Source: Antedon mediterranea
Lineage: Eukaryota > Animalia > Echinodermata
Length of the DNA stretch: 64,000 bases
NCBI RefSeq assembly: GCF_964355755.1
Contig: NC_092676.1
Coordinates: 6,425,888-6,489,887, forward strand
Direction: 5' to 3'
In this document: one piece after another, positions 4,089 to 59,126 of the stretch
How the letters are laid out: the number at the start of each line of letters is the position of its first letter
Numbering within the stretch: position 1 is the first letter of the stretch
Position numbers and translations under genes: made by a program
Notes under the pieces: generated by a model
Told to the model about the DNA's origin: nothing
Seen by the model: only the letters and a program-made list of their open reading frames with translations
Database searches by the model: none

Positions 4089-6179
4089 ACTAGAATTTAA
4101 TTCGTCACTTTGACGAATTATAGGTGATCATTTTTATCATTTTAATGAAATTAATTTTTTTTAAACATGTACGTACGTTAACATACGATAGGAAAATGTT
4201 GATGTATGCCATCCTATTATACGCTTATAGTGCTGAGTTATGCCTATTATATGCCATATACAATGTACAGTATATACTGTATATCAATATACAGTGTAGC
4301 ATAGGTGAAATTATGGGACACACATCAAGTTCAAATTTTTTGGTATGATGGAATTATCAAAATAAACTCGAAGATGACAATTTCGAAAGATAATGAATTG
4401 AGCAAATAAATATAAGGATTGGAAGAGAATTTGACACGTAAAAGCGCAATGCGCGCTCTTTGAAATTTGTATAACTTCGACTAAAGAAATTTAAAAACTA
4501 CTTTTTAACTTCAACTGGCCATATGATAACATCACAACATCCGATAGGCTTAATTTTTATATGAATTCATATCTACATTTCATCAGCTTTCATAATAAAT
4601 TATAATCTTCAAGGTCACCTTTAATTTTGAGGAGCTATAAGATATTCAAATGTATGGTGTAGCTGAAATTATACGACCTAGGTTATTCAAGTTTTTACGC
4701 GTGATGACGTCATCAAAATAAAAATGTTGACAACTTATGAGAAAGATAATTAATTGAGCAAGCACATACTAAAATGTGTGCGAAAATCGGGCTCAAATAA
4801 CGGAGATGCGCTCTATTGAATGTGATAACCCATATACAGTGTAGCATAGGTGAAATTACGGGACCCACATCATGTTCTAATTTTTTGGTATGATGGAATT
4901 ATCAAAATAAACTCGAAGATGACAATTTCGAAAGATAATGAATTGAGCAAATAAATATAAGGAATGGAAGAGAATTTGACACGTAGAAGCGCAATGCGCG
5001 CTCTTTGAAATTTGTATAACTTCGACTAAAGAAATTTAAAAACTACTTTTTAACTTCAACTGGCCATATGATAACGTTATAACATCCGATAGGCATAATT
5101 TTTAAATAAATTCATATCTACATATTATCAGCTCTCATAATAAGTTACAAACATCAAGGTCAACTTTAATTCAGAAGAGCTATCAGATATTCAAATGTAT
5201 GGTGTACCTGAAATTACAAGACCTTGGTTATTCAAGTTTTTACGCGTGATGACGTAATCAAAATAAAATGTTGACAACTCATGAGAAAGATAATTAATTG
5301 TGCAAGCACATACTAAAATGTCTGCAAAAATCGAGCTAAAATAACGGAGATGCGCTCTATTGAATGTGATAACACATACAAAAAGATAAATATTACTAAT
5401 TTTTAAATTGAAGTGGCCATTTGATGACGTCATACCATTTTGAACGTCTAATGTGTATATATATTTATATCTACAACTTATTGGCTTCCATAATAAGTTA
5501 AAAAAATTGGGGGTCACCTGCCATTCTGAAGAGTTATATTCATTTTAAAAAGGCCTTATTTTTTACCATTTTCATCACTTTGATGCAATTAATTTGCGCA
5601 TTTTGTCATTTTTAACCTGCTCGTATAGCGTTATTTTAAGTCGGAACTGACTCAAATTTGGTGAATGTACTAAGGATGGTGAGTAGAATGAGATTTGTAA
5701 AAAAAAATTATATTTTTTACGCTTTTTAAGTATCGCACGCGCAAATATTTTTTTTTGCGCAGTAATTTTTTGAAACACGCAAATGGCCTAATTCATGCTC
5801 TAAATTGATCAAAACTTAATTTTGAGCATTTTAAATTTTTAACGCGCGATTTCGTGCGCATGACCCTACGTGCACGTGCGTTTTTATTTGCTAATATATT
5901 TACCCTTGACCAGAAGTTTACGTGTAGTGAATTTCATTAATATGTGATAATGAATTATGGAGATATGATTGATAATGTGATTTTGCAAAATGGCGTATAA
6001 ATGACGTCAAGGATGAGTTATCACGCTGAAAAGCTTATTAGGACTAAGTTAAAGTATTTGAAAGACATTGTGAAATTTTGGTAATCATTGACATTAAACT
6101 TTTTGAGATATTTGTTACACAAAATCTGTACAGAAAGAAATTGCGAAGAAACATTTTTTTTTGACAAAAACAATTCCTC
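4089..6179 (-). mobile_element. HINE subfamily A unit 1 (no cap; internal 545-bp duplication)
   Basis: Starts ACTAGAATTT-AATTCGTCActtTGACGAATT-A-TAGGTGATCATTT. 4287-4831 is repeated at 4832-5376. Ends CAATTCCTC|ACTAG. Confidence 0.88.
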
Positions 6180-7733
6180 ACTAGAATTTAATTCGTCACT
6201 TTGACGAATTATAGGTGATCATTTTTATCATTTTAATAAAATTAACATTTTTTAAACATGCACGTACGTTAACATAATGATCAGAAAATGTTGATTTATA
6301 CCATCCTATTATACGCTTATACACTAGTGCTGAATTGTGCCTATTATATGCCATATACATTATGTACAGTATATACTGTATATCTATATACAGTGTAGTA
6401 TTGGTGAAATTACGGACACACATCAAAATCTAACTTTTTGGTATGATGACATTATCAAAATAAACTTGTGGATAACAATACCGAAAGATAATGAATTGAG
6501 CAATAAAATATAACAATTGGAAGAAAATTTAGCACGTAGAAGCGCGGTGCGCGCTCTTTGAAATTTTTATAACTTTTACGAAAGAGATGAAAAAATTGCC
6601 TTTTAACTTCAACTGGTCATATGATAACGTCACAAGATTCGAAAGGCTTAATTTTTATATGAATTAATATCTACATTGAACCAGCTCTCATAATAAGTTA
6701 TAATTATCAAGGTCAACTTTAATTCAGAATAGCTGTAAGGTATTCAAATATACATTGTAGGTGAAATTACGTAACCACAGTTATTCACATTTTAAGACGT
6801 GATGACGTCATCAAAATGAAAATATTGGCAACTCATGAGTAACATACTTGGTTGAGGTAGAATATATTACAAATTAAAAGAAAATTGATCACAGATAAGC
6901 GAGTTTCACTCTGTTGAATATGGTGGTCTATGACAAAGGACGAAAAAACCCTATTTTAAAAATTCATGTGGCCAAATGATGGAGTCGTACCATTTTGTAC
7001 GTCTAATGTGTATATATATTTATATCTACAACTCATTGACTTCCATAATAAGTTAAAAAAATTGGGGGTCACCTTCCATTCTGAAGAGTTATCTTCATTT
7101 TAAAATGGCCTTATTTTTTACCATTTTTAACACTTTTGTACAATTAATGTGCGCATTTTTGTCATTTTCAATGTGCTCGCATAGCACTATTCCAAGTCGA
7201 AATGGACTCGAATTTGGTGAATGTACTATGAAAGATGAGTAGAATGCAATTTGTACAAAAAATTGTTATTTTTTACGCTTTCTATGTACGCACGCGCAAA
7301 AACGTGTTTTTGCGCACTAATTTTTTAAAACACGCAAATGGCCTAATTCATGCTCTAAATTGATCAAAACGTAATTTTGAGCATTTTAAATTTTTAACGC
7401 TCGATTTCACGCGCATGACCCAACGTGCGCGTGCGTTTTTATTTGCTAATATTTTTACCCTTGATCTGAAGTTTACGTGTAGTGAATTTCATTAATATGT
7501 GATAATTAATTATGGAGATATGATTGATAATGTGATTTCAAAAAATGGCGTATAAATGACGTAACGGATGAGTGATCACGCTGAAAAGCTTATTAGGACT
7601 AAGTTAAAGTATTTGAAAGACATTCAGAAATTTTGGTAATCATTGACATTAAACTTTTTGAGATATTTGTTACACAAAATCTGTACAGAAAGAAATTGCG
7701 AAGAAATATTTTTTTTTACAAAAACAATTTCTC
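6180..7733 (-). mobile_element. HINE subfamily A unit 2 (no cap)
   Basis: Same 3' terminus; body similar to unit 8; ends CAATTTCTC|ACTAG. Confidence 0.88.
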
Positions 7734-9300
7734 ACTAGAATTTAATTCGTCACTTTGACGAATTATAGGTGATCATTTTTATCATTTTAATGAAATTAAT
7801 TTTTTTTAAACATGTACGTACGTTAACATACGATAGGAAAATGTTGATGTATGCCATCCTATTATACGCTTATAGTGCTGAGTTATGCCTATTATATGCC
7901 ATATACAATGTACAGTATATACTGTATATCTATATACAGTGTAGCATAGGTGAAATTATTGGACACACATCAAGTTCAAATTTTTTGGTATGATGGAATT
8001 ATCAAAATAAACTCGAAGATGACAATTTCGAAAGATAATGAATTGAGCAAATAAATATAAGGATTGGAAGAGAATTTGACACGTAGAAGCGCAATGCGCG
8101 CTCTTTGAAATTTGTATAACTTCGACTAAAGAAATTTAAAAACAACGTTTTAACTTCAACTGGCCATATGATAACATCACAACATCCGATAGGCTTAATT
8201 TTAATATGAATTCATATTTACATTTCATCAGCTTTCATAATAAGTTATAATCTTCAAGGTCACCTTTAATTCTGAAGAGCTATAATATATTCAAATGTAA
8301 GGTGTAGCTGAAATTACACGACCTACGTTATTAAAGTTTTTACACATGATGACGTCATCAAAATAAAAATGTTGACAACTCTTGAGAAAGATAATTAATT
8401 GAGCAAGCACATACTAACATTTCGGCGAAAATCGGGCTCAAATAACGGAAATGCGCTCTATTGAATGTGATAACCCACACAAAAAGATAAAAATTACTAA
8501 TTTTTAAATTGAAGTGGCCATTTGATGACGTCATACCATTTTGTACGTCTAATGTGTACATGAATATGTATCTAAAACCCAATGGCTTCCCGAATAACTT
8601 AAAAAAATTGGGGGTCACCTGCCATTCTGAAGAGTTATATTCATTTTAAAAAGGCCTTATTTTTCACCATTTTCAGCACTTTGATGCAATTAATTTGCGC
8701 ATTTTGATATGTTTAACCTGCTCGTATACCGTTATTTTAAGTCGAAACTGACTCAAATTTGGTGAATGTACTAAGGATGGTGAGTAGAATGCGATTTGTA
8801 TAAAAAAATTGCAATTTTTACACTTTGTAAGTATCGCGCGTGCAAAATAATTTTTTTGCGCAGTAATTTTTTGAAACACGCAAATGGCCTAATTCATGCT
8901 CTAAATTGATTAAAACGTAATTTTGAGCTTTTTAAATTTTTAATGCGCGATTTCACGCGCATGACCATACGTGCGCGCGCGTTTTTATTTGCTAATATTT
9001 TTACCCTTGACCTGAAGTTTACGTGTAGTGAATTTCATAAATATGTGATAATGAATTATGGATATATGATTGATAATGTGATTTCACAAAATGGCGTATA
9101 CGTGACGTCACGGGTCAGTGATCACGCTGAAAAGCTTATTATGGCTAAGCTAAAGTATTTGAAAGACATTGTGAAATTTTTGTGATCATTGTTATTCAAC
9201 TTTTTGAGATATTTGTTACACAAAAAGTGTACAGAAAGAAAAAAAATAAAGATTTCATACAATAACAATAGGTGATCATTTTATTCTAAATGATCACCTA
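7734..9300 (-). mobile_element. HINE subfamily A unit 3 (complete)
   Basis: 3' terminus at 7734; cap hairpin TAGGTGATCATTT-tattct-AAATGATCACCTA at 9269-9300. Confidence 0.9.
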
Positions 9301-10858
9301 ACTAGAATTTAATTCGTCACTTTGACGAATTATAGGTGATCATTTTTATCATTTTAAAGAAATTAACATTTTTTAAACATGCGTGTACGTTAACATACGA
9401 TCGTAAAAAGCTGATGTACGCTATCCTATGACATGATGCATATATACTTATAGTGCTGAGTTGTACCTATTATGTGTCATATACAATATGTACAGTATAT
9501 ACTGTATATCTATATACAGTGTAGCATAGGTGAAATTACGGGACCCACATCATGTTCTAATTTTTTGGTATGATGGAATTATCAAAATAAACTCGAAGAT
9601 GACAATTTCGAAAGATAATGAATTGAGCAAATAAATATAAGGAATGGAAGAGAATTTGACACGTAGAAGCGCAATGCGCGCTCTTTGAAATTTGTATAAC
9701 TTCGACTAAAGAAATTTAAAAACTACTTTTTAACTTCAACTGGCCATATGATAACATCACTACATCCGATAGGCTTAATTTTTATATCAATTCATATCTA
9801 CATTTCATCAGCTTTCACAATAAGTTATAATCTTCAAGGTCACCTTTAATTCTGAAGAGCTATAAGATATTCAAATGTATGGTGTAGCTGAAATTACACG
9901 ACCTAGGTTATTCAAGTTTTTACGCGTGATGACGTAATCAAAATAAAATGTTGACAACTCATGGGAAAGATAATTAATTGAGCAAGCACATACTAAAATG
10001 TGTGCGAAAATCGGGCTCAAATAACGGAGATGCGCTCTATTGAATGTGATAACCCACACAAAAAGAAAAAAATTACTAATTTTTAAATTCAAGTGGCCAT
10101 TTGATGACGTCATACCTTTTTGTACGTCTAATATGTATATATATTTATATCTACAACTTATTGGCTTCCATAATAAGTTAAAAAAATTGGGGGTCACCTG
10201 CCATTCTGAAGAGTTATATTCATTTTAAAAAGGCCTTATTTTTCACCATTTTCATCACTTTGATGCAATTAATTTGCGCATTTTGTCATTTTTAACCTGC
10301 TCGTATAGCGTTATTTTAAGTCGGAACTGACTCAAATTTGGTGAATGTACTAAGGATGGTGAGTAGAATGAGATTTGTAAAAAAAAATCATATTTTTTAC
10401 GCTTTTTAAGTATCGCGCGCGCAAAATTTTTTTTTGCGCAGTAATTTTTTGAAACACGCAAATGGCCTAATTCATGCTCTAAATTGATCAAAACTTAATT
10501 TTGAGCATTTTAAATTTTTAACGCGCGATTTCACGCACATGACCCTACGTGCACGTGCGTTTTTATTTGCTAATATATTTACCCTTGACCAGAAGTTTAC
10601 GTGTAGTGAATTTCATTAATATGTGATAATGAATTATGGAGATATGATTGATAATGTGATTTTGCAAAATGGCGTATAAATGACGTCAAGGATGAGTTAT
10701 CACGCTGAAAAGCTTATTAGGACTAAGTTAAAGTATTTGAAAGACATTGTGAAATTTTGGTAATCATTGACATTAAACTTTTTGAGATATTTGTTACACA
10801 AAATCTGTACAGAAAGAAATTGCGAAGAAACATTTTATTTTGACAAAAACAATTTCTC
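9301..10858 (-). mobile_element. HINE subfamily A unit 4 (no cap)
   Basis: A-type 3' terminus; ends CAATTTCTC|ACTAG. Confidence 0.88.
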
Positions 10859-12442
10859 ACTAGAATTTAATTCGTCACTTTGACGAATTATAGGTGATCA
10901 TTGTTATCATTTTAATAAAATTAACATTTTTTAAACATGCATGTACGTTAAAATACGATCGTAAAAAGTTGATGTACGCCATCCTATGACATGATTGCAT
11001 ATACACTGTACTTATATCGCTGAGTTGTGCCTATTATGTGTCATACAATATGTACAGTATATACTGTATATCTATATACAGTGTAGCATAGGTGAAATTA
11101 CGGGACTCATATCGTGTTCTAATTTTTTGGTATGATGGAAATTTCAAAATAAACTCGAAGATGACAATTTCGAAAGATAATGAATTGAGCAAATAAATAT
11201 ATGGATTTGAAAGAAAATTTGACACGTAGAAGCGCAATGCGCGGTCTTTGAAATTCGTATAACTTTGACTAAAGAAATTTAAAAACTACTTTTTAACTTC
11301 AACTGGCCATATGATAACATCACAACATCCGATAGGCTTAATTTTACTATGAATTCATATCTACATTTCATCAGCTTTCATAATAAGTTATAATCTTCAA
11401 GGTCACCTTTAATTTAGAAGAGCTATAAGATATTCAAATGTATGGTGTAGCTGAAATTACACGACCTAGGTTATTCAAGTTTTTACGCGTGATGACGTTA
11501 TCAAAATAAAAATGTTGACAACTCATTAGAAGAATAATTAATTGAGCAAGCACATACTAAAAGTTGTGCGAAAATCGGGCTCAAATAACGGAGATGCGTT
11601 CTATTGAATGTGATAACCCACACAAAAAGATAAAAATTCCTAATTTTTAAATTCAAGTGGCCATTTGATGACGTCATACCATTTTGTACGTCTAATGTGT
11701 ATATACATTTGTATCTACAACTTATTGGCTTCCATAATAAGTTAAAAAAATTGGGGGTCACCTGCCATTCTGAAGAGTTATATTCATTTTAAAAAATCCT
11801 TATTTTTTACCATTTTTAGCACTTTTGTACAATTAATGAGCGCATTTTGTCATGTTTAACGTGCTCGTACAGCGCTATTTTAAGTCGGATTGGACTCAAA
11901 ATCGGAGAATGTACAAAGGATTGTGAGTAAAATGTGATGTATACATTAAATTTAATTTTTTACGCATTTTAAGAATCGCGTGCGCAAAAATGTGTTTTTG
12001 CGCAGTAATTTTTTGAAACACGCAAATGGCCTAATTCATGCTCTAAATTGATCAAAACGTAATTTTGACCTTTTTAAAATTTCAACGCGCGATTTCACGC
12101 GCATGAGCCTACGTGTGCGTGTGTTTTTATTTGCTAATATTTTTACCCTTGACCTGAAGTTTACGTGTAGTGAATTTCATAAATATGTGATAATAAATTA
12201 TGGATATATGATTGATAATGTGATTTCACAAAATGGCGTATACGTGACGTCACGGATGAGTGATCACGCTGAAAAGCTTATTATGGCTAAGTTAAAGTAT
12301 TTGAAAGACATTGTAAAATTTTTGTGATCATTGCTATTCAACTTTTTGAGATATTTGACGAACAAAAAGTGTACAGAAAGAAGAATAATAAAGATTTTAT
12401 ACAATAACAATAGGTGATCATTTTATTCTAAATGATCACCTA
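10859..12442 (-). mobile_element. HINE subfamily A unit 5 (complete)
   Basis: Both termini present; near-identical to unit 11. Confidence 0.9.
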
Positions 12443-14020
12443 ACTAGAATTTAATTCGTCACTTTGACGAATTATAGGTGATCATTTTTATCGCTTTACT
12501 TACATTAATATTTTTTAAACATGCACGTACGTTAACATACAATAGGAAAATGTTGATGTATACCATCCTGTTATACGCTTATAGTGCGGAGTTGTGCCTA
12601 TTATGTGTCATATACAATATGTACAGTATATACTATATATCTATATACAGTGTAGCATAGGTGAAATTACGGGACCCACATCATTTTAAAATTTTTTGGT
12701 ATGATGGAATTATCAAAATAAACTCGAAGATGACAATTTCGAAAGATAATGAATTGAGCAAATAAATATAAGGATTGGAAGATAATTTGACACGTAGAAG
12801 CGCAATGCGCGCTCTTTGAAATTTGTATAACTTTGACTAAAGAAATTTAAAAACAACGTTTTAACTTCAACTGGCCATATGATAACATCACAACATCCGA
12901 TAGGCTTAATTTTTATATGAATTCATATCTACATTTAATCAGCTTTCATAATAAATTATAATCTTCAAGGTCACCTTTAATTCTGAAAAGCTATAACATA
13001 TTCAAATGTATGGTGTAGCTGAAATTACACGACCTTGGTTATTAAAGTTTTTACACATGATGACGTCATCAAAATAAAAATGTTGACAACTCTTGAGAAA
13101 GATAATTAATTGAGCAAGCACATACTAAAATTTCGGCAAAAATCGGGCTCAAATAACGGAGATGCGCTCTATTGAATGTGATAACCCACACAAAAAGATA
13201 AAAATTACTAATTTTTTAATTGAAGTGGCCATTTGATGACGTCATACCATTTTGTACGTCTAATGTGTACATGAATATGTATCTACAACCCAATGGCTTC
13301 CCGAATAAGTTAAAAAAATTGGGGGTCACCTGCCATTCTGAAGAGTTATATTCATTTTAAAAAGGCCTTATTTTTCACCATTTTCAGCACTTTGATGCAA
13401 TTAATTTGCGCATTTTGTTATTTTTAACCTGCTCGTATAGCGTTATTTTCAGTCAGAACTTACTCAAATTAGGTGAATGTACTAAGGATGGTGAGTAGAA
13501 CGCGATTTGTATAAAAAAACTGCAATTTTTACGCTTTGTAAGTATCGCGCGCGCAAAATATTTTTTTTGCGCAGTAATTTTTTGAAACACGCAAATGGCC
13601 TAATTCATGCTCTAAATTGATTAAAACGTAATTTTGAGCTTTTTAAATTTTTACTGCGCGATTCCACACGCATGACCCTACGTGCGCGCGCATTTTTACT
13701 TGCTAATATTTTTACCCTTGACCTGAAGTTTACGTGTAGTGAATTTCATAAATATGTGATAATAAATTATGGATATATGATTGATAATGTGATTTCACAA
13801 AATGGCGTATACGTGACGCCACGGATGAGTGATCACGCTGAAAAGCTTATTATGGCTAAGTTAAAATATTTGAAAGACATTGTGAAATTTTTGTGATCAT
13901 TGCTATTCAACTTTTTGAGATATTTGACGAACAAAAAGTGTACAGAAAGAAGAATAATAATAACAATAAAGATTTTGTACAATAACAATAGGTGATCATT
14001 TTATTCTAAATGATCACCTA
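12443..14020 (-). mobile_element. HINE subfamily A unit 6 (complete)
   Basis: Both termini present. Confidence 0.9.
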
Positions 14021-42620: not shown

Positions 42621-42629
42621 CTACAGAAA

Positions 42630-42870: not shown

Positions 42871-42979
42871 TTTGTAGCCATACGTAACGATTTTTTATAG
42901 CATTTTACAGAATAAATAAATTAGTAATTGTTATAGAATTTGACACAAATTTGTGGTCTTGATTATTATACATACAGTA

Positions 42980-48900: not shown

Positions 48901-51900
48901 ATTAACCTCGGTAAAAAATGCTTTGACAAATGAAGAAACGTATCAAAGCGCCAAGGAACTTTTTCAAAGTTTAAATATTACTCAGGGTGCATATGAGGAT
49001 GCAAATAATTGTATAACTAATGAAGAAAAGATTGTTTTAAAGAGAAACCCCGAAGATGTGTGGGTAAATCAATACAATCCTTCCTTACTTAGAGCATGGA
49101 ATGCTAATATGGATATTCAGTACATTACCAGTGTATATGCATGTGTTACATATGTTATAGGATATATGTCAAAATCTGAACGGGAAATGGGCTTACTTTT
49201 ATCTCATGCAGCATCCGAAGTGAAAGAAGGAAATGAAAATGCCAGACAAAGCCTAAGTAAACTTGGTCATGTGTACATGAACAATCGAGAAGTATCTGCG
49301 CAAGAAAGTGTTTATCGTGTTTGTGGCTTGAGATTGAAAGAATGTTCAAGGAAAGTTGAATTTATCCCAGTAGGACCTAATCCTGTTAGAATGAGTTTAC
49401 CACTAAGTGTAATTAAAAACAAAGTGGATGATAATCAAAGTGCATGGTTGCCAAATAAGCTCGACAAATATAAAGCTCGACCAAATAATTCTGAATTTAA
49501 TACAATGTGTCTTGCAACATTTTGTTCTTATTACAGAATGTTAAGTACATCAGAAATGAAAGGAAACGTGCAAAGAAAGAACGTATTCCAGTTACAAAAA
49601 AAACTAGGATTCATCCAAAAAAGAACACGAACTGACAATGCTATAATAAGGTACCCTCGGTTTCCAATGAATACAGCATCTGAAAAATATTTTATGAGTA
49701 TATTGCAGTTATTTTTGCCATTTCGAACAGATAAACAGTTAAAACCATTGAAATTTCAAACATATCAAGAATTTTATGAGCTAGGATCTGTAAAATTATA
49801 TGGCAGTAAATTACAAAAAGTAAATGTTATAGTTGATGAAAACATGGAAAGGTATGACAAAACTGCAGATGCTATTAAACATGCAGAAGGGGTTTTAGCA
49901 AAATTTGGACCACAAGAAGATGCATGGGGTCTATTATGTCCGGAAAGTGAAAAGGAAAGATTAGAGAATCCAAAGCCAAATGTAGACGTTGATGATGAAG
50001 AAAATGAATTTTTTGTTCCAGATTTTGGCCTAAAAAAAAATGAAACATCTACAATAGAGTGTAACTCATCTAGTATTTCAAGACCGGAACTGAACAAAAT
50101 GATTCGATCTTTAAATAAACAACAAAAACAAATATTTTATAAGACAAGGCAATGGTGCTTGGATAAAGTTAATGGCAAACAACCTGAATCGTTTTACACT
50201 TTTATAACTGGAGGCGCTGGCACTGGAAAAAGCCATTTGGTTAATTGTATTTATAATGAAGCAACACGTATTCTCGGAAAAATGTTGGAAAATCCGGATG
50301 ATATGTCAATATTGAAACTAGCTCCTACAGGGATTGCAGCATATAATATTAAAGGTCATACCATTCATAGTGCTTTGTCTATTCCTATTCATATTTCACT
50401 TCCATATCAACCACTTGGAGAAGAAAAAATAAGTGCACTTCGTAATCAGTTAGGTCAATTGCAAATTGTTATTATAGATGAAATATCAATGGTAAATCAA
50501 AAGTTACTCTGGTACATCCACGGACGATTGCGGCAAATAAAGCAAGTACGTAATGATAGTGCATTTGGTAATATTTCAATAATTGCAGTTGGTGATTTTT
50601 ATCAGTTACCGCCTGTGAGGGGCACTTCTTTGTATAAAAACACATTGGAAAACTCATTATGGGTAGATAACTTTAAAAGAGTGCAGTTAGATGAAATCAT
50701 GAGGCAAAAAGAAGATAAAGAGTTTGCTGTACTTTTAAACAAATTGCGCACAAAAGAAAGAAATGATTGCTTGTCTGACAAAGATTTATCAGTTTTAAAA
50801 TCATGTGAAACAGGTGAACAATGTGACGATGCTGTTCATATATACCCATGTAATAAGCAGGTTAATGAATGGAATAAAACAATGTTGCATAAAACATGTT
50901 TAGATATTATATGCATTGAAGCAGAGGATACTGTAGTAAACAGCAAGAAACAAGACAAACATTGTGATAAACCTCGGAAATCATGTCAAACTAATTTATT
51001 AAATTATCTGTGGATTGCACTTAATGCCAGAGTGATGTTGATTAAAAATGTAGATGTTAAAAAAGGCTTAACAAATGGATGTATGGGACATGTGGAAGAA
51101 ATAATTAAGCCCAGTCCAAACGCTAAACCAATATCAATTAAAGTGAAATTTGATAACAAGGACATTGGTATTCAGGCAATTGAAATGTTTCAAGAATCTA
51201 TTGGAAAAAAATACAGTCGAAAGCAATTCCCACTCAAATTAGCATATGCATGCACAGTTCATAAAGTGCAAGGAATGACAATGAATAAAGCACTGGTTTG
51301 CCTTAAAAATACCTTTGCGCCTGGACAAGCATATGTAGCACTCAGTCGTGTTACCTCAATATCTGGACTTACCATTGAACATGTTAATTCTAAGTTGATT
51401 TATTGTGATCCTACTATAAAGGAATATTTAAACAAGATGAATTCATACATACAATGTGATAAAGAAGTTAATGATTCTGGTTCTGAATTTTCAATAATGT
51501 TACATAATATTCAAGGGCTTAAACAACATTTTGCTGATCTTCAGTGCAATGATTTGATTATGAATTCTACTACCATATGTCTAACTGAAACATGGCTAAA
51601 TAAGGATGATGATTTTGTTGACTTAAGTATAGAGCCGTATAAATTCTATCACCAAGCAAGATATGACTCATATTCTAATAAAAATGATTACTTAAAAAAT
51701 CAGGCTCATGGTGGAGTTGCAGTCTATACTAAGAACAAATTTTCAAGCAGGTTAGACATAGGTATTAACGACATAGAGGTAATTTCATTTTTAATAACAT
51801 GTCCAATTTCAGTTGCTGTATCAGTAATTTATAGACCTCCGAGCTATGATATTAAACAATTTTGTCAAAATTTGAGGAAGTTATTAAAAAAGGTGCATAA

Positions 51901-52138
51901 AGTAAGTACAAAATGTATCATAATGGGCGACTTTAATGAAAATCTTTTCAAACAACCTTCCAAAGTGAATATTTTAATGACAGAGAGTGGTTATCAACAA
52001 CATGTTACAAGTTCTACTACTGAAAGTAATACATTGATTGATCATGTATATAGCAAAGGTCTAGATTCAATGCAGGCACATGTAATTCCAATTTATTATA
52101 GTTACCATGAGGCCATTCAAATTAAATTTGGATTATAA
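42980..52138 (+). CDS. Helentron/Helitron2 RepHel polyprotein (PHD, C76-like DUB, OTU, Zn finger, HUH Rep, Pif1-family helicase, AP endonuclease)
   Basis: Uninterrupted frame (open from 42953, first ATG 42980). Motifs: PHD CGLC..CDCC..H..C..CSMC; GSFNQG..GKQC..FDPH; GDGNCFYRAIS..HFNVV; IRGTPPYW, PTFFLSFS, EFQMRGSPHVH, YVIGYMSK; GGAGTGKS, IIDEISM, GDFYQLPPV, TVHKVQGMT, YVALSRV; HNIQGL, LTETWL, IYRPP, GDFN, IDHVY, SYH. Confidence 0.95.
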   Translation: MDTQLITVVVTMLFLMLLLMMWCLCTNHKDVTSKEYNNDNTPGKVNNSIIYKTEVTDVPDQCCLPTNVKNVSTLNMDEKDTHTDICEFIKKIVDDIVNVSSGTAVASEFKKCGLCNIEYIADENYVSCDCCSKFYHVTCVRQMFEGKLCDSRVIWICSMCGNSNFANNMLGEIGIACHFNRYMILEHDESNAKFEEFTENEQNWKSNQRNVTKTNTNSQCQQTESENSLGREWIKVRSRKNTSNRKQGGKKRGNKNRKKRVINGIIIELGVTYIGKAVNDFYEKRNKKLHENVDREKIPDNSQTILNEKVDVDVHSPTSDASEVTTITNTIQQLSGGGFNTKQPRKKGRFVKRSNKKKSQEDNDNHKMDEDISKSFISDHLGNDDNSKVICNEDNVYKVASDEPKSNSKINQLRLDSSCDVTDHEVLIIDEEQTKTSKETIRENTRPTNNFKQYNMNDDNSVDIKVSTNECKISDDNTKNVASFKQYKSVVNPCNSITNNRTIAQGSFNQGHSRFGYARGKQCVANSLVAIVYSTKRNGNEFYKNDLDTILTLGNELYYYIQKDSTMDEDLLMISELPKKLDMLDSKFLISPKESVFGIIDGSLESMAEYGALSLKQALEQELHQHDACFMNFNRSTFAIIKRVNGFLIFDPHARDCVGCVSEHGKSILIYSTSWQGVYSYCLKLARSMNCNLHETEFELTGVNVQNESMFLCSSSSVTLDDNCELNNSENCDVNAPGTSSQFKCSKTLPNNNIDSTIKDNKHSNKKDDVSTSNGCQTDDEIEIVNVQYGERPDKNFKFVPILEAQRKSMCHKVGINCEHTGRNCGINRTSHIGHPCQIKNITGDGNCFYRAISYIISGTENNHLILRKAIGNHLLETDDLFSSTLSVEYRTVMEYVIKKRVMDNGTWASNTEISAMANLLNTDIYSFNDQLLTWQMFSAKNPGKINEVTTDNGMYILYTRNVHFNVVESVDFNLNYVPETITIVDSDDVDSSSEISVDPSVMKNNLTKYNNTRKRKEISHEILEDAIGPKQKRSKNFEGSCSNKIKTIRDNKTTIERNKRLENKKRMRTTRSNDSTTNVEKHNKAEVQRKKYKNDSVYREEKKRKVKEAQRIKYADDNYKLSKRKENRERQQKAYRCDPNYNLKVRSKMKQNDNIKLDYRTTKKAKSVQYYRLNERFRQNLKEKRKNRYQTDLIFRQNFKQNNKQNMAQKYMNNLQFRQNLIQKLASKYRNNSTFRQNLSQKLAAKYRNNSTFRQNLKRKYRSILKQDLGEKYRIDLKFRQSCKQRFTEKYHSNTTFRQSCKKKFNDKYHSDSKFKTNCNQRFTKKYHGDSLFRKNVVLKNMRHRKIRRAEKRNFEFVLQNFRESTSHGPEYVCCVCFKMLFKNQVVKCTKAKYEYRTCINEKYLHICNNECNNPCQFAKSPRCTLWICFTCHKKLLKGKVPAEANSNNLELQEIPPELKCLNNLEQHLIGLNIPFMKLMNLPKGGQHGIHGPVVCVPSNTIETVKILPRPEADDQLISVKLKRKLSYKGYYKYKFVNTSNVIQALEYLQDHNKWYFDVAIDENWHNYLSKENIESKTTNQQTCVENNEEEEEDRLCGVAFDTSLQPVDRRQNLVDEYFRDIICCAPCENNSPIALLSNENNEAKSFPVLFPTGQPTFHDTRDVKITLGRYLHNRLMHVDNRFAKNTEFIFYAQSIYELQQILSSISIALRKGSSKKDNFSKVTVSDLKNINKIEEILKSDKGYKFLKQIRGTPPYWQATQKDVLAMVRQIGKPTFFLSFSSADLRWKEIMTTLLSQTGDQRNIDDLEWADKCNLLKSNPVTVARMFDKRFHTFLKKVILSETQPIGKVTDYFYRIEFQMRGSPHVHMLVWVENAPVFNEDEDKKVIEFIDKYISCSVPRQFVDSEMNEIVTSVQIHSKRHSKSCKKKGTNCRFNFPRQPSEKTFVMRPTIVDKNNDDDNNDNDNANKQAQELLTSVKNALTNEETYQSAKELFQSLNITQGAYEDANNCITNEEKIVLKRNPEDVWVNQYNPSLLRAWNANMDIQYITSVYACVTYVIGYMSKSEREMGLLLSHAASEVKEGNENARQSLSKLGHVYMNNREVSAQESVYRVCGLRLKECSRKVEFIPVGPNPVRMSLPLSVIKNKVDDNQSAWLPNKLDKYKARPNNSEFNTMCLATFCSYYRMLSTSEMKGNVQRKNVFQLQKKLGFIQKRTRTDNAIIRYPRFPMNTASEKYFMSILQLFLPFRTDKQLKPLKFQTYQEFYELGSVKLYGSKLQKVNVIVDENMERYDKTADAIKHAEGVLAKFGPQEDAWGLLCPESEKERLENPKPNVDVDDEENEFFVPDFGLKKNETSTIECNSSSISRPELNKMIRSLNKQQKQIFYKTRQWCLDKVNGKQPESFYTFITGGAGTGKSHLVNCIYNEATRILGKMLENPDDMSILKLAPTGIAAYNIKGHTIHSALSIPIHISLPYQPLGEEKISALRNQLGQLQIVIIDEISMVNQKLLWYIHGRLRQIKQVRNDSAFGNISIIAVGDFYQLPPVRGTSLYKNTLENSLWVDNFKRVQLDEIMRQKEDKEFAVLLNKLRTKERNDCLSDKDLSVLKSCETGEQCDDAVHIYPCNKQVNEWNKTMLHKTCLDIICIEAEDTVVNSKKQDKHCDKPRKSCQTNLLNYLWIALNARVMLIKNVDVKKGLTNGCMGHVEEIIKPSPNAKPISIKVKFDNKDIGIQAIEMFQESIGKKYSRKQFPLKLAYACTVHKVQGMTMNKALVCLKNTFAPGQAYVALSRVTSISGLTIEHVNSKLIYCDPTIKEYLNKMNSYIQCDKEVNDSGSEFSIMLHNIQGLKQHFADLQCNDLIMNSTTICLTETWLNKDDDFVDLSIEPYKFYHQARYDSYSNKNDYLKNQAHGGVAVYTKNKFSSRLDIGINDIEVISFLITCPISVAVSVIYRPPSYDIKQFCQNLRKLLKKVHKVSTKCIIMGDFNENLFKQPSKVNILMTESGYQQHVTSSTTESNTLIDHVYSKGLDSMQAHVIPIYYSYHEAIQIKFGL

Positions 52139-53859
52139 TCTTTATATTAACTCAGATGTTTAATCTTAATCGGAATTGTTTTAAGGAAGGTTAAACAAAC
52201 TTATAAACAGAACTTTAATAAAGAAAATCATAAAACGAACATAAAATAGAACTGGATAAAAACAAACAAATTTTAAAAAGAACTAAAAAACAATAGCAAT
52301 TCTCTGCAGAAAGAAATACCCACTAAAACTAACATACTGTACGTGACATACAAGAATGTTATATAGGTTACATTTAATTTTTTTGGAATCCCATTTTAAT
52401 AGTACAGTATTATAGTTATTAATTATGTCTATAGTTAGGAAAAGTCTGGATCGAATCCAAACAGACGATATTTATTATAGTTATTATATAAGGTGTTGTT
52501 GTGTTGTTGTAAGGCCATTTCAAATTATATTGGGATTATAATCTTTACATTTATTCCTATGTCCTATTATTATGAAAAATTAAGAAAAAAAAAAAGAATT
52601 TTACAAACAGAACTTAATAAATCTTTCTTCATAGGAGACAAGCATAACTGCCAAAATCTGTATGGAGGAATACATTATTATCAGGTGAGTAAACCCTCAT
52701 GTTAGGGATTATTGGAATTAACGCCTCTATGCAGAGTAGTTTTCTGACTGCTCCGCCACCTTTGATATGAGATCTTTTCATATTTTGTGCGGTCATCTCT
52801 GGAAAAGATCTCGTTCGGAATAGTATTATCTCATTCACATATATATAAAATAATGAATTAAATATGAATTTCAAAAATGCTATGATACACAGATAGTGTG
52901 TATATAACAACCTCATTATCTATTAAATAAATAAGTTAATAAAACTGTTAAAAAAACATTTCATTTGATACGATTAACAATTTGATTAGACATATTTTAA
53001 TGTATACCTTTTTTATGGTACTTGTTTTTCTTTCTATTCAGATAGCATTTATAATAATTCAACACAAGTAGGCTTCTTATGCAAGTGTTACGGAGTGTAA
53101 TGAAATTAAATGGTTTCAAATTGTAATCAATGTTTGTGGTCAAGCAAAATGAGGTCCATTACAAGAATTGAAGACAGTCATAGATATATTTATAAAAGAA
53201 ATAATTACGGACTTCAGAAAAGAACCCTTTGTGCATAATTATGTTGTTATTGATGATGCTACTACCCGTAGAAGTATATTGCAATAGACAACACATTATA
53301 ATTATTGGTGTATTATTTTAATACAAATTGTATAAGTAAGGTCACATGTAGTGCGGCAACTTAAACAATACCGCGTAAAAATACTTTGATTATACGTCCT
53401 ATCATTATTTTTAATAAATGTGTTTATAAATAAATAGTCTTATAATTATTATATTTTAGCAAAAACAAATCTTTCTTTTGTACATATAATTCACTATTTA
53501 ATAGTTTCTTCTTTTATTTCCTCTTTATTTCCTTTTTTGGCTGCTTGTGTATCCTGTTTTTGTATTTATTTATGTTTTAGCTATTTTTTGGTAGTCCAAT
53601 GGCTAGTTTTATGACAGATAGAAGTGTTCACGTAGAGTATTCAATGCCACGTCTTGATGGCGAATTTTGCATAAACCAAAAAATTATCCATGTGAAAAAA
53701 TCAATATAATTGTAGGCCTAATATAATTGTTTATCCATAGACGAATTAATTTGCAAAATATGTGTATGATATGAAAAAAATATACAATTTTTATTATGTA
53801 AACTATTAAATGAAATGAGTTTAATCTACACAGTTTGAATAATTATTAACACACATTGT

Positions 53860-54705
53860 TGAATTGACATTATAATGTTCAAACTTGAAATAGAAACAGG
53901 ATATTAGATAACCAAAATTACAAACCAATCGGAGAATCAAATGGAATATTCTGATTTAAAACATATTAAAATGAAGTCACTCTGATATAACATATAATAT
54001 TTCTAGATGCGCGTTCTTAAATGGAATGAAAATCCGATTTTACTTGACCTGGCCAGATGACGTCACAAATCCAATAGGAAAATGTTTTCATGAATTCATA
54101 TCTACAATTTAACAGCTTCCATATTAAGTTTTATGGCTATCACTTTAAATTTGGAGAGAGTTATGAGAGATGGATGTATATTATAAAGATAAAATAAGTG
54201 ATCCAAGTTGTTCCAATTTTTAGACATGATGACTTTATAAAAAATAAAATATTTTTAAATCAGAAGACAGAAAATTGATCATAATATATACCGTAGTTGA
54301 GCTGAACTCTGTCTATATTTGTGCCATATCCACGTGCATGTACGTTAAAAATTATGCACATAAAAAAATTAGGCTATGTCATTATGACCTGAAGAATATA
54401 AATTCTGTCTATTTTGTGTCTTATAGTATCAGTATACCATATACTCTATACATTATTATACAGTCTAGCATAATTAAAATATTAGTCTCGACTTCAATTC
54501 TTCAATTTTTAATATGATGACCCATCAAAATGAAACAGGAAGATAGCAACTTCGGAAGACAATCAACTGATCACAAACATATTAACATGTTAAAGAATTT
54601 GAATACGTAAAATATAGATGCTCTTTTAAATGAGATGAAGTATGACGCAAAAGATGAAAATACGACTTTTTTTATTCAACTGACCATATGATGACGTCAC
54701 AACAC
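53860..54705 (-). mobile_element. Old degenerate HINE-body fragments downstream of the ORF
   Basis: Diverged matches such as CTGGCCAGATGACGTCACAAATCCAATAGG, CACGTGCATGTACGTT, GACCATATGATGACGTCACAAC; no termini. Confidence 0.7.
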
Positions 54706-56009
54706 GCACGTACACTAAATTAAGTAATTATTGCTAGGTAAATAGGGTCAAAGAATATATATCACAAGAATGAGTATTCCGCGATTTTTGCATGAGAAAT
54801 TTGTAACACAGAGCTCCAGTGAATGAGGCCCGCCCTCATAAGGGTGGATGTATACATACTAAATAAAACTTGATTTAATAGATATTATACATGTCACATT
54901 AAATAGAATTATGATAATAGTTTTTGCAATTGTAAACTATTTTATAATACATATTTATTAACAAACTAGTGTACATTCACTTTTACAGACAATTATTTAC
55001 TAACATGCTAAGTTAGTTCACAAAAAAGGCCTAACACAGCAACACCAAAAATCAACGAATCGTTACTCAGCACGGCCTATTCATTACCATTGCCGTGTAC
55101 TACTCTACGCCCGGTAAATTAAGTATTGTTTTTATGATATAAATTAGTATAAAATACATGTTATTAATAGGACAAAATGATAAATGTCTTTAACATTTAT
55201 TTGTTTTACCAGAAACAAGTTAAATATAGGAATATTATTAAACTATCCTTCGTGAAAACGCGTAAACACCAACACGCCCGGTCACGCTATCGTAGCGCCC
55301 GGTTGATAAAGCAAACTGTTTATACGGCAGTTTTTACTAAATAAATTGCATAAAAATAACAATTAAATATCCAAATAGTATTTAACATGATGTTGGCATC
55401 ATGGATCTATTCTTTAATCCATGTTGGCATGTAGTTGTAGTAGTTTATCCTGAAAATGCTACCGGTGGTCTAGCCTTTGATTATTGAAACCGTCACAAAA
55501 AGTTGTATACATCCCAGATACATCCACACTTATGGCGGCGCCCTACCACATGGACAATATTACTGTTACAGGGAAAATCGCGGATTACTCATTCTTGTGA
55601 TATATATTCCTTGATAGGGTTTATGTTTATGATGACAGGTAGTGTCAGGTTCGGCGAATGTAAAATTCCGTCGACTTCAAGTATAATGTAAATAGATAAA
55701 TGATGAAGGTACAAGTAGGTTAAATTCTCATGAGCCTTTTGTTCATATAAGGTAGAACTTATAATTACAAGATACAACACAATTAAGTAGAAATATATAT
55801 ATATATATATTCACGTCCCACTAGCTTGGAATCAAAACGAAGAGTGCCAGAGGCCTACTAGGTCCCTGGATAAGTTGTTTACCACAATTAAGCGAGTAGT
55901 TGAATTACACGCACAGTAAAATAGCCAATCAGAACCTAGTCTTATTTGGCCTGCTACATTATAGAAATAGGTAGGAAATAAATTATTTGCGCTATACCAT
56001 TACGTCACG

Positions 56010-57477
56010 GTCAGTATAAACAGTTAAATATGTATACATAAATTATTATATACAGTGTAGAATAGGTAAAATTACGGGACCCGCCATTTATTCCAATTTT
56101 TAACATGGCGACGGTAACAAAATGAAACACTAAGTTAGCAATTTCGGAAGGAAATTATATCAGCAACAACATATTAACGTGTAGAAGAAATTTGAATACG
56201 TAAAATATAGATGCGCGCCCTTTTAAATGTGATGAACTTTGGCGTAAAATATGAAAATACGACTTTTTGTATTCAACTGGCCATATGATGACGTCAAAAC
56301 ATCTGATTGGCAAAATGTTTACATGATTTCGTATCTACAATCCAATAGCTTCCAGAAAACGTTTTAATTGTGATTATCACATTTTATTCTTACGAGCTAT
56401 AATATATTTAAATTTAATGTAAAGATGAAATTAATGCCACACGTAATATAAATTTTTAGTTATGATGACGTCATAAAAATTAAATTATTTTTAATTCATG
56501 CGAAAGATAGTTGATTGACCTAGACAATATCACAATCGGGGTGAAAATGGAAAACGGATAAGTGGAGATGCGCTCTATTAAATGTGATGAGCTATGACGA
56601 AAGATACAAAAATCCTATATTTTATATTTGCGTGGCTATACGATGACGTCACAATGTTCGGTTAGCCATATTAATACCTGATCCGATATCTACAACTCAT
56701 CAACTTCCAGAATATATCATCCACAAAAAGTTGACCGTGTAGTTTTGAAATTACGACTGTTTAAAAAAAGGTATACTTTTGACAAATTTTGACGAATTTT
56801 TGAACTTTTCCATCAAAAACACACGTAAATGATCCAATTCGACGTGCTCGTATGACGTAATTTTAAGTCAAAATTATTTAAAAGTTGGTAAAATTACTAG
56901 AAAAGGCTGGAAAAACCTAAATTACTCGAAAAAAATTGTTTTCAACGCTACGTGCGCACCACGCGCGTAAAAATATTCGCGCGCGTGGGAATTTTTTGCA
57001 TGCTCAAAATGACATGAAACGCGTAGAAAGTTGATTAGAAATTGATTTTTTGTATTTTAAAATTTTAAACGCGCGTGCGCGCGTAACTTCGTGTGAAACA
57101 TGCCATTTTTTTTCCACAGTCGGTTAGCGCAGAATATAAATTAAACTTTTGCTAAGTTTCAATTTAAATTGTTATATGGTTTTTGATTAATGTTAAATAC
57201 GCTAAATTCGTTAAAATGCGCGTAAGTCATGTTGCGCAATTCTGACGTCATTCAAAAATAAAAAAGCACAACTTCACGTGAATGCCCATATGTTGACAAA
57301 GTTATGAAATGTTAACTGTACACGTTTTTGAGATATGCTCTGCACAAAAATGACAGAAAGAAAGAAGAATACAGAAAAAAAAAAAAGATGATGAAACAGG
57401 ACAGTTACAAGGAGTTATCCGTGAAAGCGGATGAAACAGGACAGTTACAAGGAGTTATCCGTGAAAGCGGATAACTA
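56010..57477 (-). mobile_element. HINE-type 5' arm (subfamily E/B3) with cap but no adjacent 3' end
   Basis: B-like body from ~56010; cap GAGTTATCCGtgaaagCGGATAACTA with a 40-bp tandem duplication (57390/57430). Confidence 0.85.
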
Positions 57478-57596
57478 AAAAAGATGATGTTGATCTCGTA
57501 CAATCACAAGAGGTTATCCTGCAACTTCGTTGCGGATAACCAAAAATATTGATCCCATACAATAACAAGGAGTTATCCGCCAAGTGCGGATAACTA
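57478..57596 (-). repeat. Stack 3: two orphan 5' caps (B2, B1)
   Basis: Match the caps of complete B2 and B1 units. Confidence 0.92.
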
Positions 57597-59126
57597 ACTA
57601 GAATTTAATTCGTCACTTTGACGAATTATAGGTGATCATTTTTATCGCTTTACTGACATTAATATTTTTTAAACATGCACGTACGTTAACATACAATAGG
57701 AAAATGTTGATGTATACCATCCTGATATACGCTTATAGTGCTGAGTTGTGCCTATTATGTGTCATATACAATATGTACAGTATATACTGTATATCTATAT
57801 ACAGTGTAGCATAGGTGAAATTACGGGACCCACATCATGTTCAAATTTTTTGGTATGATGGAATTATCAAAATAAACTCAAAGATGACAATTTCGAAAGA
57901 TAATGAATTGAGCAAATAAAAATAAGGATTGGAAGATAATTTGACACGTAGAAGCGCAATGCGCGCTCTTTGAAATTTGTATAACTTTGACTAAAGAAAT
58001 TTAAAAACAACGTTTTAACTTCAACTGGCCATATGATAACATCACAACATCCGATAGGCTTAATTTTTATATTAATTCATATCTACATTACATCAGCTTT
58101 CATAATAAGTTATAATTTTCAAGGTCACCTTTAATTCTGAAGAGCTATAATATATTCAAATGTAAGGTGTAGCTGAAATTACACGACCTACGTTATTCAA
58201 GTTTTTACGCGTGATGATGTCATCAAAATAAAAATATTGACAACTCCTGAGAAAGATAATTAATTGAGCAAGCCCATCCTAAAATTTGTGCGCAAATCAG
58301 GCTCAAATAACGGAGATGGGCTCTGTTGAATGTGATAACCCACACAAAAACATAAAAATTACTAATTTTTAAATTCAAGTGGCCATTTGATGACGTCATA
58401 CCATTTTGTACGTCTAATGTGTATATACATTTATATCTACAACTTATTGGCTTCCATATTAAGTTAAAAAAATTAGGGGTCATCTTCCATTCTGAAGAGT
58501 TATATTCATTTTAAAAAGGCCTTAATTTTTACCATTTTTAGCACTTTTGTACAATTAATGTGCGCATTTTGTCATTTTTAACGTGCTCGTATAGCACTAT
58601 TTTAAATCGAAATGGACTCACAATTTACGCTTTCTAAATACGCACGTGCAAAAACGTGTTTTTGCGCAGTAATTTTTTAAAACACGCAAATGGCCTATTT
58701 TATGCTCTAAATTGATCAAAACTTAATTTTGAGCTTTTTAAAATTTTAACGCGCGATTTCACGTGCATGACCTTGAAACACGTAAGTTTTTATTTTTTAA
58801 TATTTTTACCCTTCACCTGAAGTTTACGTATAGTGAATTTTATTGATATGTGATAAAGAGTTATGGAGATATGATTTATAGTGTGATTTCACAAAATCGC
58901 GTATACGTGACGTCACGGTTGAGTGATAACGCTGAAAAGCTTATTATGGCTAAGTTAAAGTATTTGAAAGACACTGTGAATTTTTTGTGATCATTGCCAT
59001 TCAACTTTTTGAGATAATTGTTACACAAAAAGTGTACAGAAAGAATAAAAAAAAAAAAAAAAATAATAATAATAAAGATTTCATACAATAACAATAGGTG
59101 ATCATTTTATTCTAAATGATCACCTA
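57597..59126 (-). mobile_element. HINE subfamily A unit 22 (complete)
   Basis: Both termini present; small deletion near 58620. Confidence 0.9.

What the first reader, a model, noticed from the sequence alone, without database searches (positions are those of the whole stretch)
4089..59126. Self-targeting 'matryoshka' of rolling-circle transposons: a 55-kb nest that parses like balanced brackets
Seen: every unit opens (on +) with ACTAG-hairpin-subTIR and closes with a subfamily-specific palindromic cap. Units broken in the A-tract before their cap recover that cap later, in last-in-first-out order. Parse: (1+2+3),(4+5),6,7[8+9[10]],11,12[13,14,15[16[17[18+19[20+21]]]+coding block+E]],22. That is six levels deep, with all units in the same orientation. 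Established: Helentrons/HINEs have subTIRs and a 3' stem-loop, and insert at TT. Inference: each element carries its own landing pad (a T-tract ~50-70 nt inside the 5' end, or the terminal T), so several subfamilies repeatedly target each other. The resulting satellite-like array records insertion order and is built by transposition rather than by unequal crossover.
Basis: partly seen in the sequence, partly recalled or inferred. Interest (0 to 1): 0.92.

Follow-up and report, generated by a model that had tools for sequence, protein, structure and literature searches.

The report
Six-deep nest of self-inserting Helentrons
A 55-kb stretch that looks like a satellite is a nest of about two dozen small rolling-circle transposons plus one unbroken transposase gene, whose cut ends rejoin in last-in-first-out order, likely because these elements aim at the ends of earlier copies, a larger and cleaner case of self-insertion proposed before in fungi.

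Summary
Observation confirmed. 4089-59126 holds 22 hairpin-CTAG ends and 17 palindromic caps of about six non-autonomous Helentron (HINE) subfamilies, all on the minus strand (the 'opener' is the 3' end, the 'cap' the 5' end), plus a stop-free 3052-aa Helentron ORF. Seven broken units rejoin their displaced caps; last-in-first-out is the best of 5040 assignments, three rejoins are letter-perfect, and all seven breaks lie 52-69 nt inside the 5' end, a zone with only 2-7% of a unit's AA/AAA sites. Depth six holds. Corrections: T-richness alone does not explain the targeting; six units have no cap, and four of them likely travel as 3-kb dimers whose junction is a second landing site, which changes the left-arm parse; copies are recombinant mosaics, so recombination also acted; one truncated fragment and the ORF run the other way. 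Contigs of one sample show other cap-on-cap stacks and also dispersed copies. Self-insertion giving stacked 5' ends is published for Fusarium Helitron2, and this scan noted like nests in five notes on other DNA. Verdict: new variant of a known kind; the targeting mechanism is inferred.

The parts
4089..59126 (-). Whole nest, 55,038 bp, between two flanks that read like one interrupted old LINE fragment
   Evidence: flanks (weak)
4089..6179 (-). Unit 1: family A, capless tail type, with a ~545-bp internal duplication (93% alike); likely partner of unit 11
6180..7733 (-). Unit 2: family A, capless tail type; likely partner of unit 7
7734..9300 (-). Unit 3: complete family A HINE
9301..12442 (-). 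Units 4 (capless, 9301-10858) + 5 (complete, 10859-12442): likely one 3.1-kb dimer
12443..14020 (-). Unit 6: complete family A HINE
14021..15556 (-). Unit 7 body (family A), broken 58 nt from its 5' end; remainder 20020-20077
15557..18635 (-). Units 8 (capless, 15557-17108) + 9 body (17109-18635); unit 9 broken 69 nt from its 5' end, remainder 19951-20019
18636..19950 (-). Unit 10: complete family D HINE inside unit 9
19951..20077 (-). Stack of two displaced family A 5' ends (units 9, 7)
20078..21660 (-). Unit 11: complete family A HINE, 99% identical to unit 5
21661..23194 (-). Unit 12 body (family B), outer shell of the right-hand nest; remainder 57543-57596; identical to unit 13 over 1534 bp
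23195..26376 (-). Units 13 (complete B, 23195-24782) and 14 (complete C, 24783-26376)
26377..27903 (-). Unit 15 body (family C); remainder 57478-57542
27904..29438 (-). Unit 16 body (family B); remainder 36425-36476
29439..30964 (-). Unit 17 body (family C); remainder 36358-36424
30965..33915 (-). Units 18 (capless, rearranged, 30965-32394) + 19 body (family B, 32395-33915; remainder 36292-36357)
33916..36291 (-). Units 20 (capless F, 33916-35067) + 21 (complete F, 35068-36291), 94% alike; innermost layer
36292..36476 (-). Stack of three displaced 5' ends: B (19), C (17), B (16)
36477..56043 (.). Coding block, 19.6 kb; no family-type terminus of its own found; its sampled 3' part is at about single-copy depth
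38491..39212 (+). Truncated HINE 3' end in the opposite orientation (73-79% to family A)
42980..52138 (+). Stop-free 3052-aa Helentron ORF: Herpes_teg_N, OTU, DUF6570, Helitron_like_N, PIF1, endonuclease; HUH, two-tyrosine and Walker motifs present; antisense to the HINE 5'-3' direction
54748..55614 (.). Unrelated high-copy element with 41-bp terminal inverted repeats inside the block
56044..57477 (-). E: HINE-like body and cap (40-bp duplication in the cap), lacking its last ~200 bp; inferred 5' end of the ORF-bearing element
57478..57596 (-). Stack of two displaced 5' ends: C (15), B (12)
57597..59126 (-). Unit 22: complete family A HINE

Best explanation
This is a nest of non-autonomous Helentrons built by repeated insertion of several subfamilies into the ends of resident copies, likely because the Rep-helicase is drawn to resident termini rather than to any T-run. 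Shown: seven inserts sit 52-69 nt inside a resident's 5' end, each adds one T at either end with nothing lost (exact in three B-family rejoins), and each pushes the old 5' end outward, which gives the last-in-first-out stacks; eight further junctions are clean 3'-end-to-5'-end abutments. Inferred: (a) transposase bound at the resident 5' hairpin and a conserved TTCTTTC motif 67-99 nt inside opens the strand between them, which then accepts an incoming circle with fixed polarity; (b) a 3'-to-5' abutment equals a circle junction, which Helraiser cuts in vitro, so it would be a second entry point; (c) starting at an inner 5' end and reading past its own terminator would move 'insert + capless host' as one dimer, which accounts for the six capless units; (d) recombination or template switching later mixed the copies. 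The ORF inside may supply transposase, but that is untested.
For: Best of 5040 and of 120 assignments; edit distances 0,0,0,1,3,5,8. The 50-70 nt zone holds 1.7-5.3% of AA, 2.4-6.7% of AAA and 0-13.6% of AAAAA sites in 4 intact units; seven of seven there has chance 6e-9 to 9e-7 on the most generous of these shares (the zone was drawn after seeing the data). All 9 breaks in cap-type tails lie 9-27 nt from a purine motif found within 67-122 nt of the 5' end in 10 of 10 intact ends. 22 of 22 ends are co-oriented though TT sites (6346) are nearly as common as AA sites (7899) on +. Neighbours are often different families (B-C 81%, A-B about 72% over part), which neither concatemers nor crossover produce. 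In contigs of one sample, 5 of the 12 joints shown in table 5c put an E-type remainder after a C cap with different A-run lengths, the reverse of the order here. Capless units pair best as 1-11, 2-7, 4-5, 8-9 (r 0.94 and 0.96, best of 20), and 5, 7, 9, 11 are the only capped units with an 8-bp insertion. Helraiser needs its 5' end, can bypass its 3' end, shows no local hopping and cleaves its end-to-end junction on one strand.
Against: No genome was held, so enrichment was not measured genome-wide; 17 contigs show the A-family 3' end next to varied A-rich flanks, so many copies are dispersed and self-targeting is not obligatory. The host site itself lacks the motif. The contig sample may be the window's source and no listed contig spans the window's own stack. 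Units 7, 9 and 15 have no exact intact allele for comparison, and the 7/9 pair is also a perfect 58-bp tandem. The dimer pairing rests on six distances, and a second pairing reaches r 0.92 on head sequence. All six capless units sit beside a same-group unit, so collapse of twin caps by slippage is an alternative to read-through. Steps (a)-(c) are extrapolated from a Helitron1 enzyme; I know of no Helentron biochemistry (recalled).
Confidence: 0.72

Rival explanations
1. Passive pile-up: serial insertion is real, but only a T-rich strand preference acts, and the 5'-proximal tract is simply the best T/pyrimidine tract each element carries; no transposase tethering.
For: HINEs prefer T-rich sites (PMC4067079; PMC7492417); the tract is strand-biased, which would give co-orientation by itself; it is the longest A-run in unit 22 (17 nt); target preference alone makes TE dimers in Drosophila (PMC5932611).
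Against: B13 has five other A-runs of 6-7 nt, C14 four and A5 two, none near the 5' end and none hit; C units are hit where the run is only five A; four of nine cap-type breaks or their remainders are not in a pure A-run.
Confidence: 0.18
2. The array grew mainly by rolling-circle concatemers and unequal crossover; the brackets are by-products.
For: Helitron tandem arrays by terminator bypass are published (Xiong 2016 as told in PMC12628747); 12 and 13 are identical, 5 and 11 99%; A copies are mosaic, 0 of 1000 permutations; duplications in units 1, 18 and cap E.
Against: Neither process displaces a 52-69 nt end by up to 34 kb and restores it letter for letter, nor alternates families 70-81% alike; most neighbours are not each other's closest relatives.
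Confidence: 0.07
3. Assembly artefact: repeats were mis-joined into an apparent nest.
For: The stretch is repeat-dense, 12 and 13 are identical over 1534 bp, and no read or contig spanning the stacks was seen (table cut).
Against: Most copies differ by 1-20%, the ORF is unbroken over 9.2 kb, unique parts of the block are covered by single-copy contigs with 0-1 differences, and mis-joins have no reason to balance seven brackets to the letter.
Confidence: 0.03

Closest known systems
HINE / DINE-1 non-autonomous Helentrons and their autonomous partners (Thomas et al. 2014, PMC4067079; passages and section 15 read)
   Same: 5' subTIR with nearby inverted repeat, 3' subTIR plus stem-loop, T-rich targets, no target duplication, extra terminal T; some Helentrons have the ORF in minus orientation; distantly related Helitrons are noted to lie directly next to each other.
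   Different: The passages read give adjacency and clustering, not ordered nesting at a fixed distance from the 5' end or stacks of displaced ends.
Fusarium oxysporum FoHeli (Helitron2) with multiple 5' termini (Chellapan et al. 2016, PMC5148889, passages; PMC13342296, passages)
   Same: Self-insertion near the 5' end proposed as the source of short (<200 bp) stacked 5' termini, up to five in one copy; a copy inserted 2 bp from another; reversed ORFs.
   Different: There mostly the derived product (many 5' ends, one 3' end) of one family is seen; here the whole nest is in place with bodies and ends matched, about six subfamilies of two subTIR types take part, and the complementary product (capless host behind an insert) appears.
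HelenXT233 of Xenopus tropicalis and HLE2 subgroup b (HELIANO, PMC11417382, passages)
   Same: An autonomous HLE2 with two different left ends in direct repeat; DUF6570 as HLE2 marker; endonuclease and Herpes_teg_N enriched in subgroup b.
   Different: Two left ends only, not read as a nest.
TE dimers by double insertion (McGurk and Barbash 2018, PMC5932611, passages)
   Same: Insertion-site preference makes tandem TEs that may seed satellites.
   Different: That route relies on a duplicated host target and the text has no Helitron mention; here the target is the element's own end and there is no duplication.
Helraiser (Helitron1; PMC4778049 and PMC5876387, passages)
   Same: Rep-helicase chemistry, 5' end needed, 3' hairpin bypass, circles with exact end junctions; the ORF matches PDB 7lcc at E 9e-25.
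   Different: TC/CTAG ends, AT target, no subTIRs, no endonuclease, no clustering near donors.

Membership tests
Helentron (HLE2) transposase | Rep (HUH, two tyrosines) fused to PIF1 helicase | tested here: met
   Helitron_like_N E 5e-36, PIF1 E 1e-27; HUH at 1858, Y-x3-Y at 2058, Walker A 2411 and B 2496
Helentron (HLE2) transposase | C-terminal AP-type endonuclease | tested here: met
   Exo_endo_phos E 5.7e-9, residues 2843-3027
Helentron (HLE2) transposase | HLE2 marker domains DUF6570, Herpes_teg_N; OTU upstream | tested here: met
   all three above Pfam cut-off; marker status from PMC11417382
Helentron (HLE2) transposase | Placement in the HLE2 clade on a Rep-helicase tree | not tested
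   no tree built
Autonomous Helentron | Own matching 5' and 3' termini around the ORF | tested here: inconclusive
   cap E lies 5.3 kb past the ORF; no 3' hairpin-CTAG of its own in the block (block start folds at z -1.1); the nearest 3' end is unit 16's or an inner one
Autonomous Helentron | Activity | not testable with these tools
   stop-free ORF and identical young HINE copies are only indirect
HINE (non-autonomous Helentron) | 5' subTIR nested in an inverted repeat | tested here: met
   five cap types fold at z -4.4 to -6.6; absent in the six capless units
HINE (non-autonomous Helentron) | 3' subTIR matching the 5' one, followed by a stem-loop | tested here: met
   same 9-10 nt subTIR at both ends within each family group, then a hairpin and CTAG
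HINE (non-autonomous Helentron) | Insertion at TT without target duplication | tested here: met
   6 of 7 rejoined sites are T^T and one T^C on the element strand; three rejoins are exact when both terminal T are counted to the element, which cannot be told from a 1-2 T duplication
HINE (non-autonomous Helentron) | No coding capacity | tested here: met
   no frame of 120 aa or more in any unit
Classical satellite array from unequal crossover | Head-to-tail monomers of one family, neighbours most alike or in higher-order period | tested here: not met
   six subfamilies interleaved, displaced ends, neighbours not closest
Rolling-circle concatemer | Identical tandem copies from one template | tested here: not met
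   only 12/13 are identical, and 13 interrupts 12 rather than following it

The most novel reading that the evidence does not exclude
Helentron transposases across subfamilies use resident element ends (the zone between the 5' hairpin and a conserved motif, and 3'-to-5' junctions) as preferred integration sites, so nests are self-feeding safe harbours that grow fast (everything inside unit 12 arrived before it gained one change in 1534 bp against unit 13) and export compound elements; this nest also holds an intact transposase with which that targeting could be reconstituted.
Probability: 0.4. Interest if true: 0.78.

Novelty: new variant of a known kind. Interest (0 to 1): 0.6.

Why it matters
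How rolling-circle transposons choose targets is barely known beyond a dinucleotide. A nest in which every insertion can be placed to the base shows a positional rule (resident ends, fixed polarity, across subfamilies), catches in place the intermediate proposed for multi-5'-end Helitron2 elements, and gives a route to satellite-like arrays that annotation tools would misread as tandem repeats. It also supplies the parts for a direct test: an unbroken Helentron ORF, very young donors and defined target variants.

Tried and rejected
No genome was available, so no genome-wide count. Local hopping as the cause of clustering: I recalled it for Helraiser, but the paper reports none; dropped. The capless A tail as a new kind of cap: folds at only z -1.4, 18 of 200 shuffles as good; not supported. 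A 3' terminus at the start of the coding block: z -1.1; not supported. Sixteen short frames in 36477-42300 were listed and not searched further. Exact empty site from the flanks: both flanks read in one frame; the right-flank peptide found 5 proteins at E<=0.001 among 1.84 billion, two with a motif that I recall as a LINE ORF2 end, none with a telling Pfam family; spacing to the left-flank peptide fitted one residue in one hit and two or four in the other, at low scores, so this is weak; the Atlas gave only unnamed clusters with low recognition. Run X1 (another organism, share 0.08) carries related bodies but showed no joints among those listed; no habitat or species claim is made. Whether the capless-dimer junction is multi-copy in the genome stays unmeasured. 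Look-ups of earlier findings by sequence and by place were empty. Six literature searches returned no paper describing a multi-subfamily last-in-first-out Helentron nest; subscription papers such as Xiong 2016 and the Thomas and Pritham review were not read, and no supplements were read (the FoHeli1 multi-5'-end figure is supplementary and may show more).
Full report
What is there. The window is AT-rich DNA with a 55,038-bp block (4089-59126) made of 1.1-2.1 kb units and one 19.6-kb coding block. Each unit starts on + with ACTAG, a hairpin and a 9-10 nt subterminal repeat: 22 such ends. Seventeen palindromic caps lie in the block. Read on the minus strand this is the HINE/DINE-1 plan of Thomas et al. 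2014 (PMC4067079, passages): the cap is the 5' subTIR with its inverted repeat, the 'opener' is the 3' subTIR, stem-loop and CTAG. Five caps fold at z -4.4 to -6.6, four 3' hairpins at z -2.0 to -4.8. By ends and bodies there are families A (units 1-9, 11, 22; 83-99% alike), B (12, 13, 16, 19; 99-100%), C (14, 15, 17; 95-98%), F (20, 21; 94%), D (10), the rearranged unit 18 and E; B, C, E and F are 75-87% alike, A and B about 72% over part of their length. A has one subTIR, the others share another.

The brackets. Seven units stop 52-69 nt short of their 5' end, and seven short cap remainders are stacked at 19951-20077, 36292-36476 and 57478-57596. Scored against an intact tail of the same family, the last-in-first-out assignment gives 0, 0, 0 edits for the three B units, 1 and 8 for the C units, 3 and 5 for the A units; it is the only best of 5040 permutations, and of 120 in the right-hand nest. 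The three B breaks fall at three different bases and each is complemented only by its own remainder. The count works if each insert brings one T at either end, which cannot be told from a duplication of one or two T. Depth six holds. The weakest bracket is 7/9, whose remainders also form a perfect 58-bp tandem, and cap E shows that slippage duplications do occur in caps.

More than T-richness. The zone 50-70 nt from the 5' end holds 1.7-5.3% of AA and 2.4-6.7% of AAA sites in four intact units, and other A-runs of 6-7 nt in the bodies are never hit. Seven of seven in that zone has a chance of 6e-9 on the AAA share and 9e-7 on the AAAAA share; the zone was drawn after the fact and some layers may have arrived together, so these are rough. 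All nine breaks in cap-type tails (the seven plus 18 and 20) lie 9-27 nt from a purine motif present 67-122 nt inside 10 of 10 intact ends. Eight other junctions are exact cap-to-3'-end abutments. All 22 ends point one way although TT is nearly as common as AA on + (6346 against 7899).

The capless units. Units 1, 2, 4, 8, 18 and 20 never recover a cap. Units 1, 2, 4 and 8 share a distinct tail (95.5-99.4% over the last 200 columns) and all break at the same base. Allowing that later copies entered the junction, I scored the 20 non-crossing pairings: 1-11, 2-7, 4-5 (8-9 is forced) is best on whole length (r 0.94) and on the first 300 columns (r 0.96); 1 and 4 differ by 3.1%, 11 and 5 by 1.0%; 2 and 8 by 7.8%, 7 and 9 by 7.9%; and 5, 7, 9, 11 are the only capped units with an 8-bp insertion. 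So the left arm likely reads 1{2{3,(4+5),6}7[8+9[10]]}11: two 3.1-kb dimer lineages whose junction is itself a landing site. This rests on six distances, and another pairing reaches 0.92 on heads. Read-through past an inner 3' end is the likely origin of such dimers (shown for Helraiser, PMC4778049); collapse of twin caps is the alternative. Their genome-wide copy number stays unmeasured.

Recombination also acted. Among ten full-length A units, neighbouring informative sites are far more compatible than permuted ones (0.112 against 0.212 +/- 0.007; 0 of 1000), nearest relatives change along the unit, unit 1 repeats about 545 bp at 93% and unit 18 about 295 bp at 81%. This mixes bodies but does not make the brackets.

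The coding block. A stop-free 3052-aa ORF (42980-52138, +) has Herpes_teg_N, OTU, DUF6570, Helitron_like_N, PIF1 and endonuclease domains above Pfam cut-offs, intact HUH, two-tyrosine and Walker motifs and matches Helraiser. HELIANO gives DUF6570 as an HLE2 marker and endonuclease plus Herpes_teg_N as typical of subgroup b. The ORF is antisense to the HINE direction, as reported for some Helentrons. I found no 3' terminus of its own; E as its 5' end is an inference. The block also holds an oppositely oriented truncated 3' end (38491-39212) and an element with 41-bp terminal repeats (54748-55614).

Outside evidence. No genome was held. Five runs hold the ORF region; four were laid on 52000-57900. 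X2-X4 are one sample and may be the source. Unique block DNA is covered by contigs at depth about 260-310 in X2, while summed depth over HINE bodies is in the millions: a very abundant family, though this is no copy number. Of 12 joints shown in table 5c (134 not shown), five place an E-type remainder after a C cap with different A-run lengths; two joints in table 5 go from a C cap straight to a 3' end; four X4 contigs continue a B cap with unit 18's type of end. So cap-on-cap stacks recur elsewhere. Against exclusivity, 17 X3 contigs join the A-type 3' end to varied A-rich flanks. No listed contig spans the window's own stack. The two outer flanks read in one frame like the tail of an old LINE protein (resemblance recalled; searches give only weak support).

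Mechanism. Shown: serial, co-oriented, base-exact insertion at resident ends. Inferred: transposase engaged at a resident 5' end exposes the strand between hairpin and motif as target; end-to-end junctions, which Helraiser cuts strand-specifically in vitro (PMC5876387), are a second entry; local hopping is not the cause, at least for Helraiser. Units 12 and 13 are identical over 1534 bp (upper bound 0.2% per site) and 16 and 19 are 99.2-99.3% to them, so the right-hand nest filled quickly, unless 12 was converted or parts came as compounds.

Against the literature. Chellapan et al. 2016 proposed self-insertion as the source of short stacked 5' termini in Fusarium Helitron2; a 2026 paper counts up to five in one copy; HelenXT233 has two left ends; Thomas 2014 notes adjacent unrelated Helitrons; McGurk and Barbash 2018 show dimers from target preference; tandem Helitrons on a Drosophila Y and shuffled oyster loci are described. 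Two further papers read as passages added nothing on nesting. Six searches found no account of a multi-family nest with matched ends, a fixed landing zone or capless dimers; closed-access papers and all supplements were unseen. This scan has five unchecked notes of like nests on other DNA, seen after my reading was formed.

Verdict. Real, well ordered, a member of the Helentron/HINE kind; self-insertion is a known idea, the preserved multi-family nest with a positional rule and an intact transposase is a new variant. Interest 0.6.

Noticed in passing
window 4833, 31173-31181, 56044: Three independent rearrangement points (unit 1's duplication, unit 18's deletion, E's truncation) fall 200-212 nt from the 3' end, beside an internal palindrome in A and F units: a possible pause or switch site.
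   Followed up: partly
window 4030-4088 and 59127-59250: Both flanks read in one frame like the C-terminal tail of a LINE protein (recalled resemblance); the left flank ends in its own ACTAG-containing palindrome one base from the first unit.
   Followed up: partly
window 38491-39212: Truncated HINE 3' end of another subfamily in opposite orientation inside the coding block.
   Followed up: partly
window 54748-55614: High-copy element with 41-bp terminal inverted repeats (95%) inserted between the ORF and E.
   Followed up: no
window 54026-54262 and 54401-54704: Degenerate, permuted HINE-body fragments (72-82%) downstream of the ORF.
   Followed up: no
window 42322-42867: 14-bp and 21-bp minisatellites just upstream of the ORF.
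   Followed up: no
window 43310-43460 and 46604-46750: The ORF has a PHD-like cysteine cluster near residue 112 and a 54-bp (18-residue) coding repeat.
   Followed up: no
window 53880-54062: A second variant (8 differences, 8 gaps in 170 nt) of the block's 3' region exists in the sample at equal depth, an allele or paralogue, while 52095-53002 shows one.
   Followed up: no
window 88-590, 622-780, 3153-3592, 62302-62435: Unrelated tandem repeats of 20, 27, 134 and 21 bp in the flanks.
   Followed up: no
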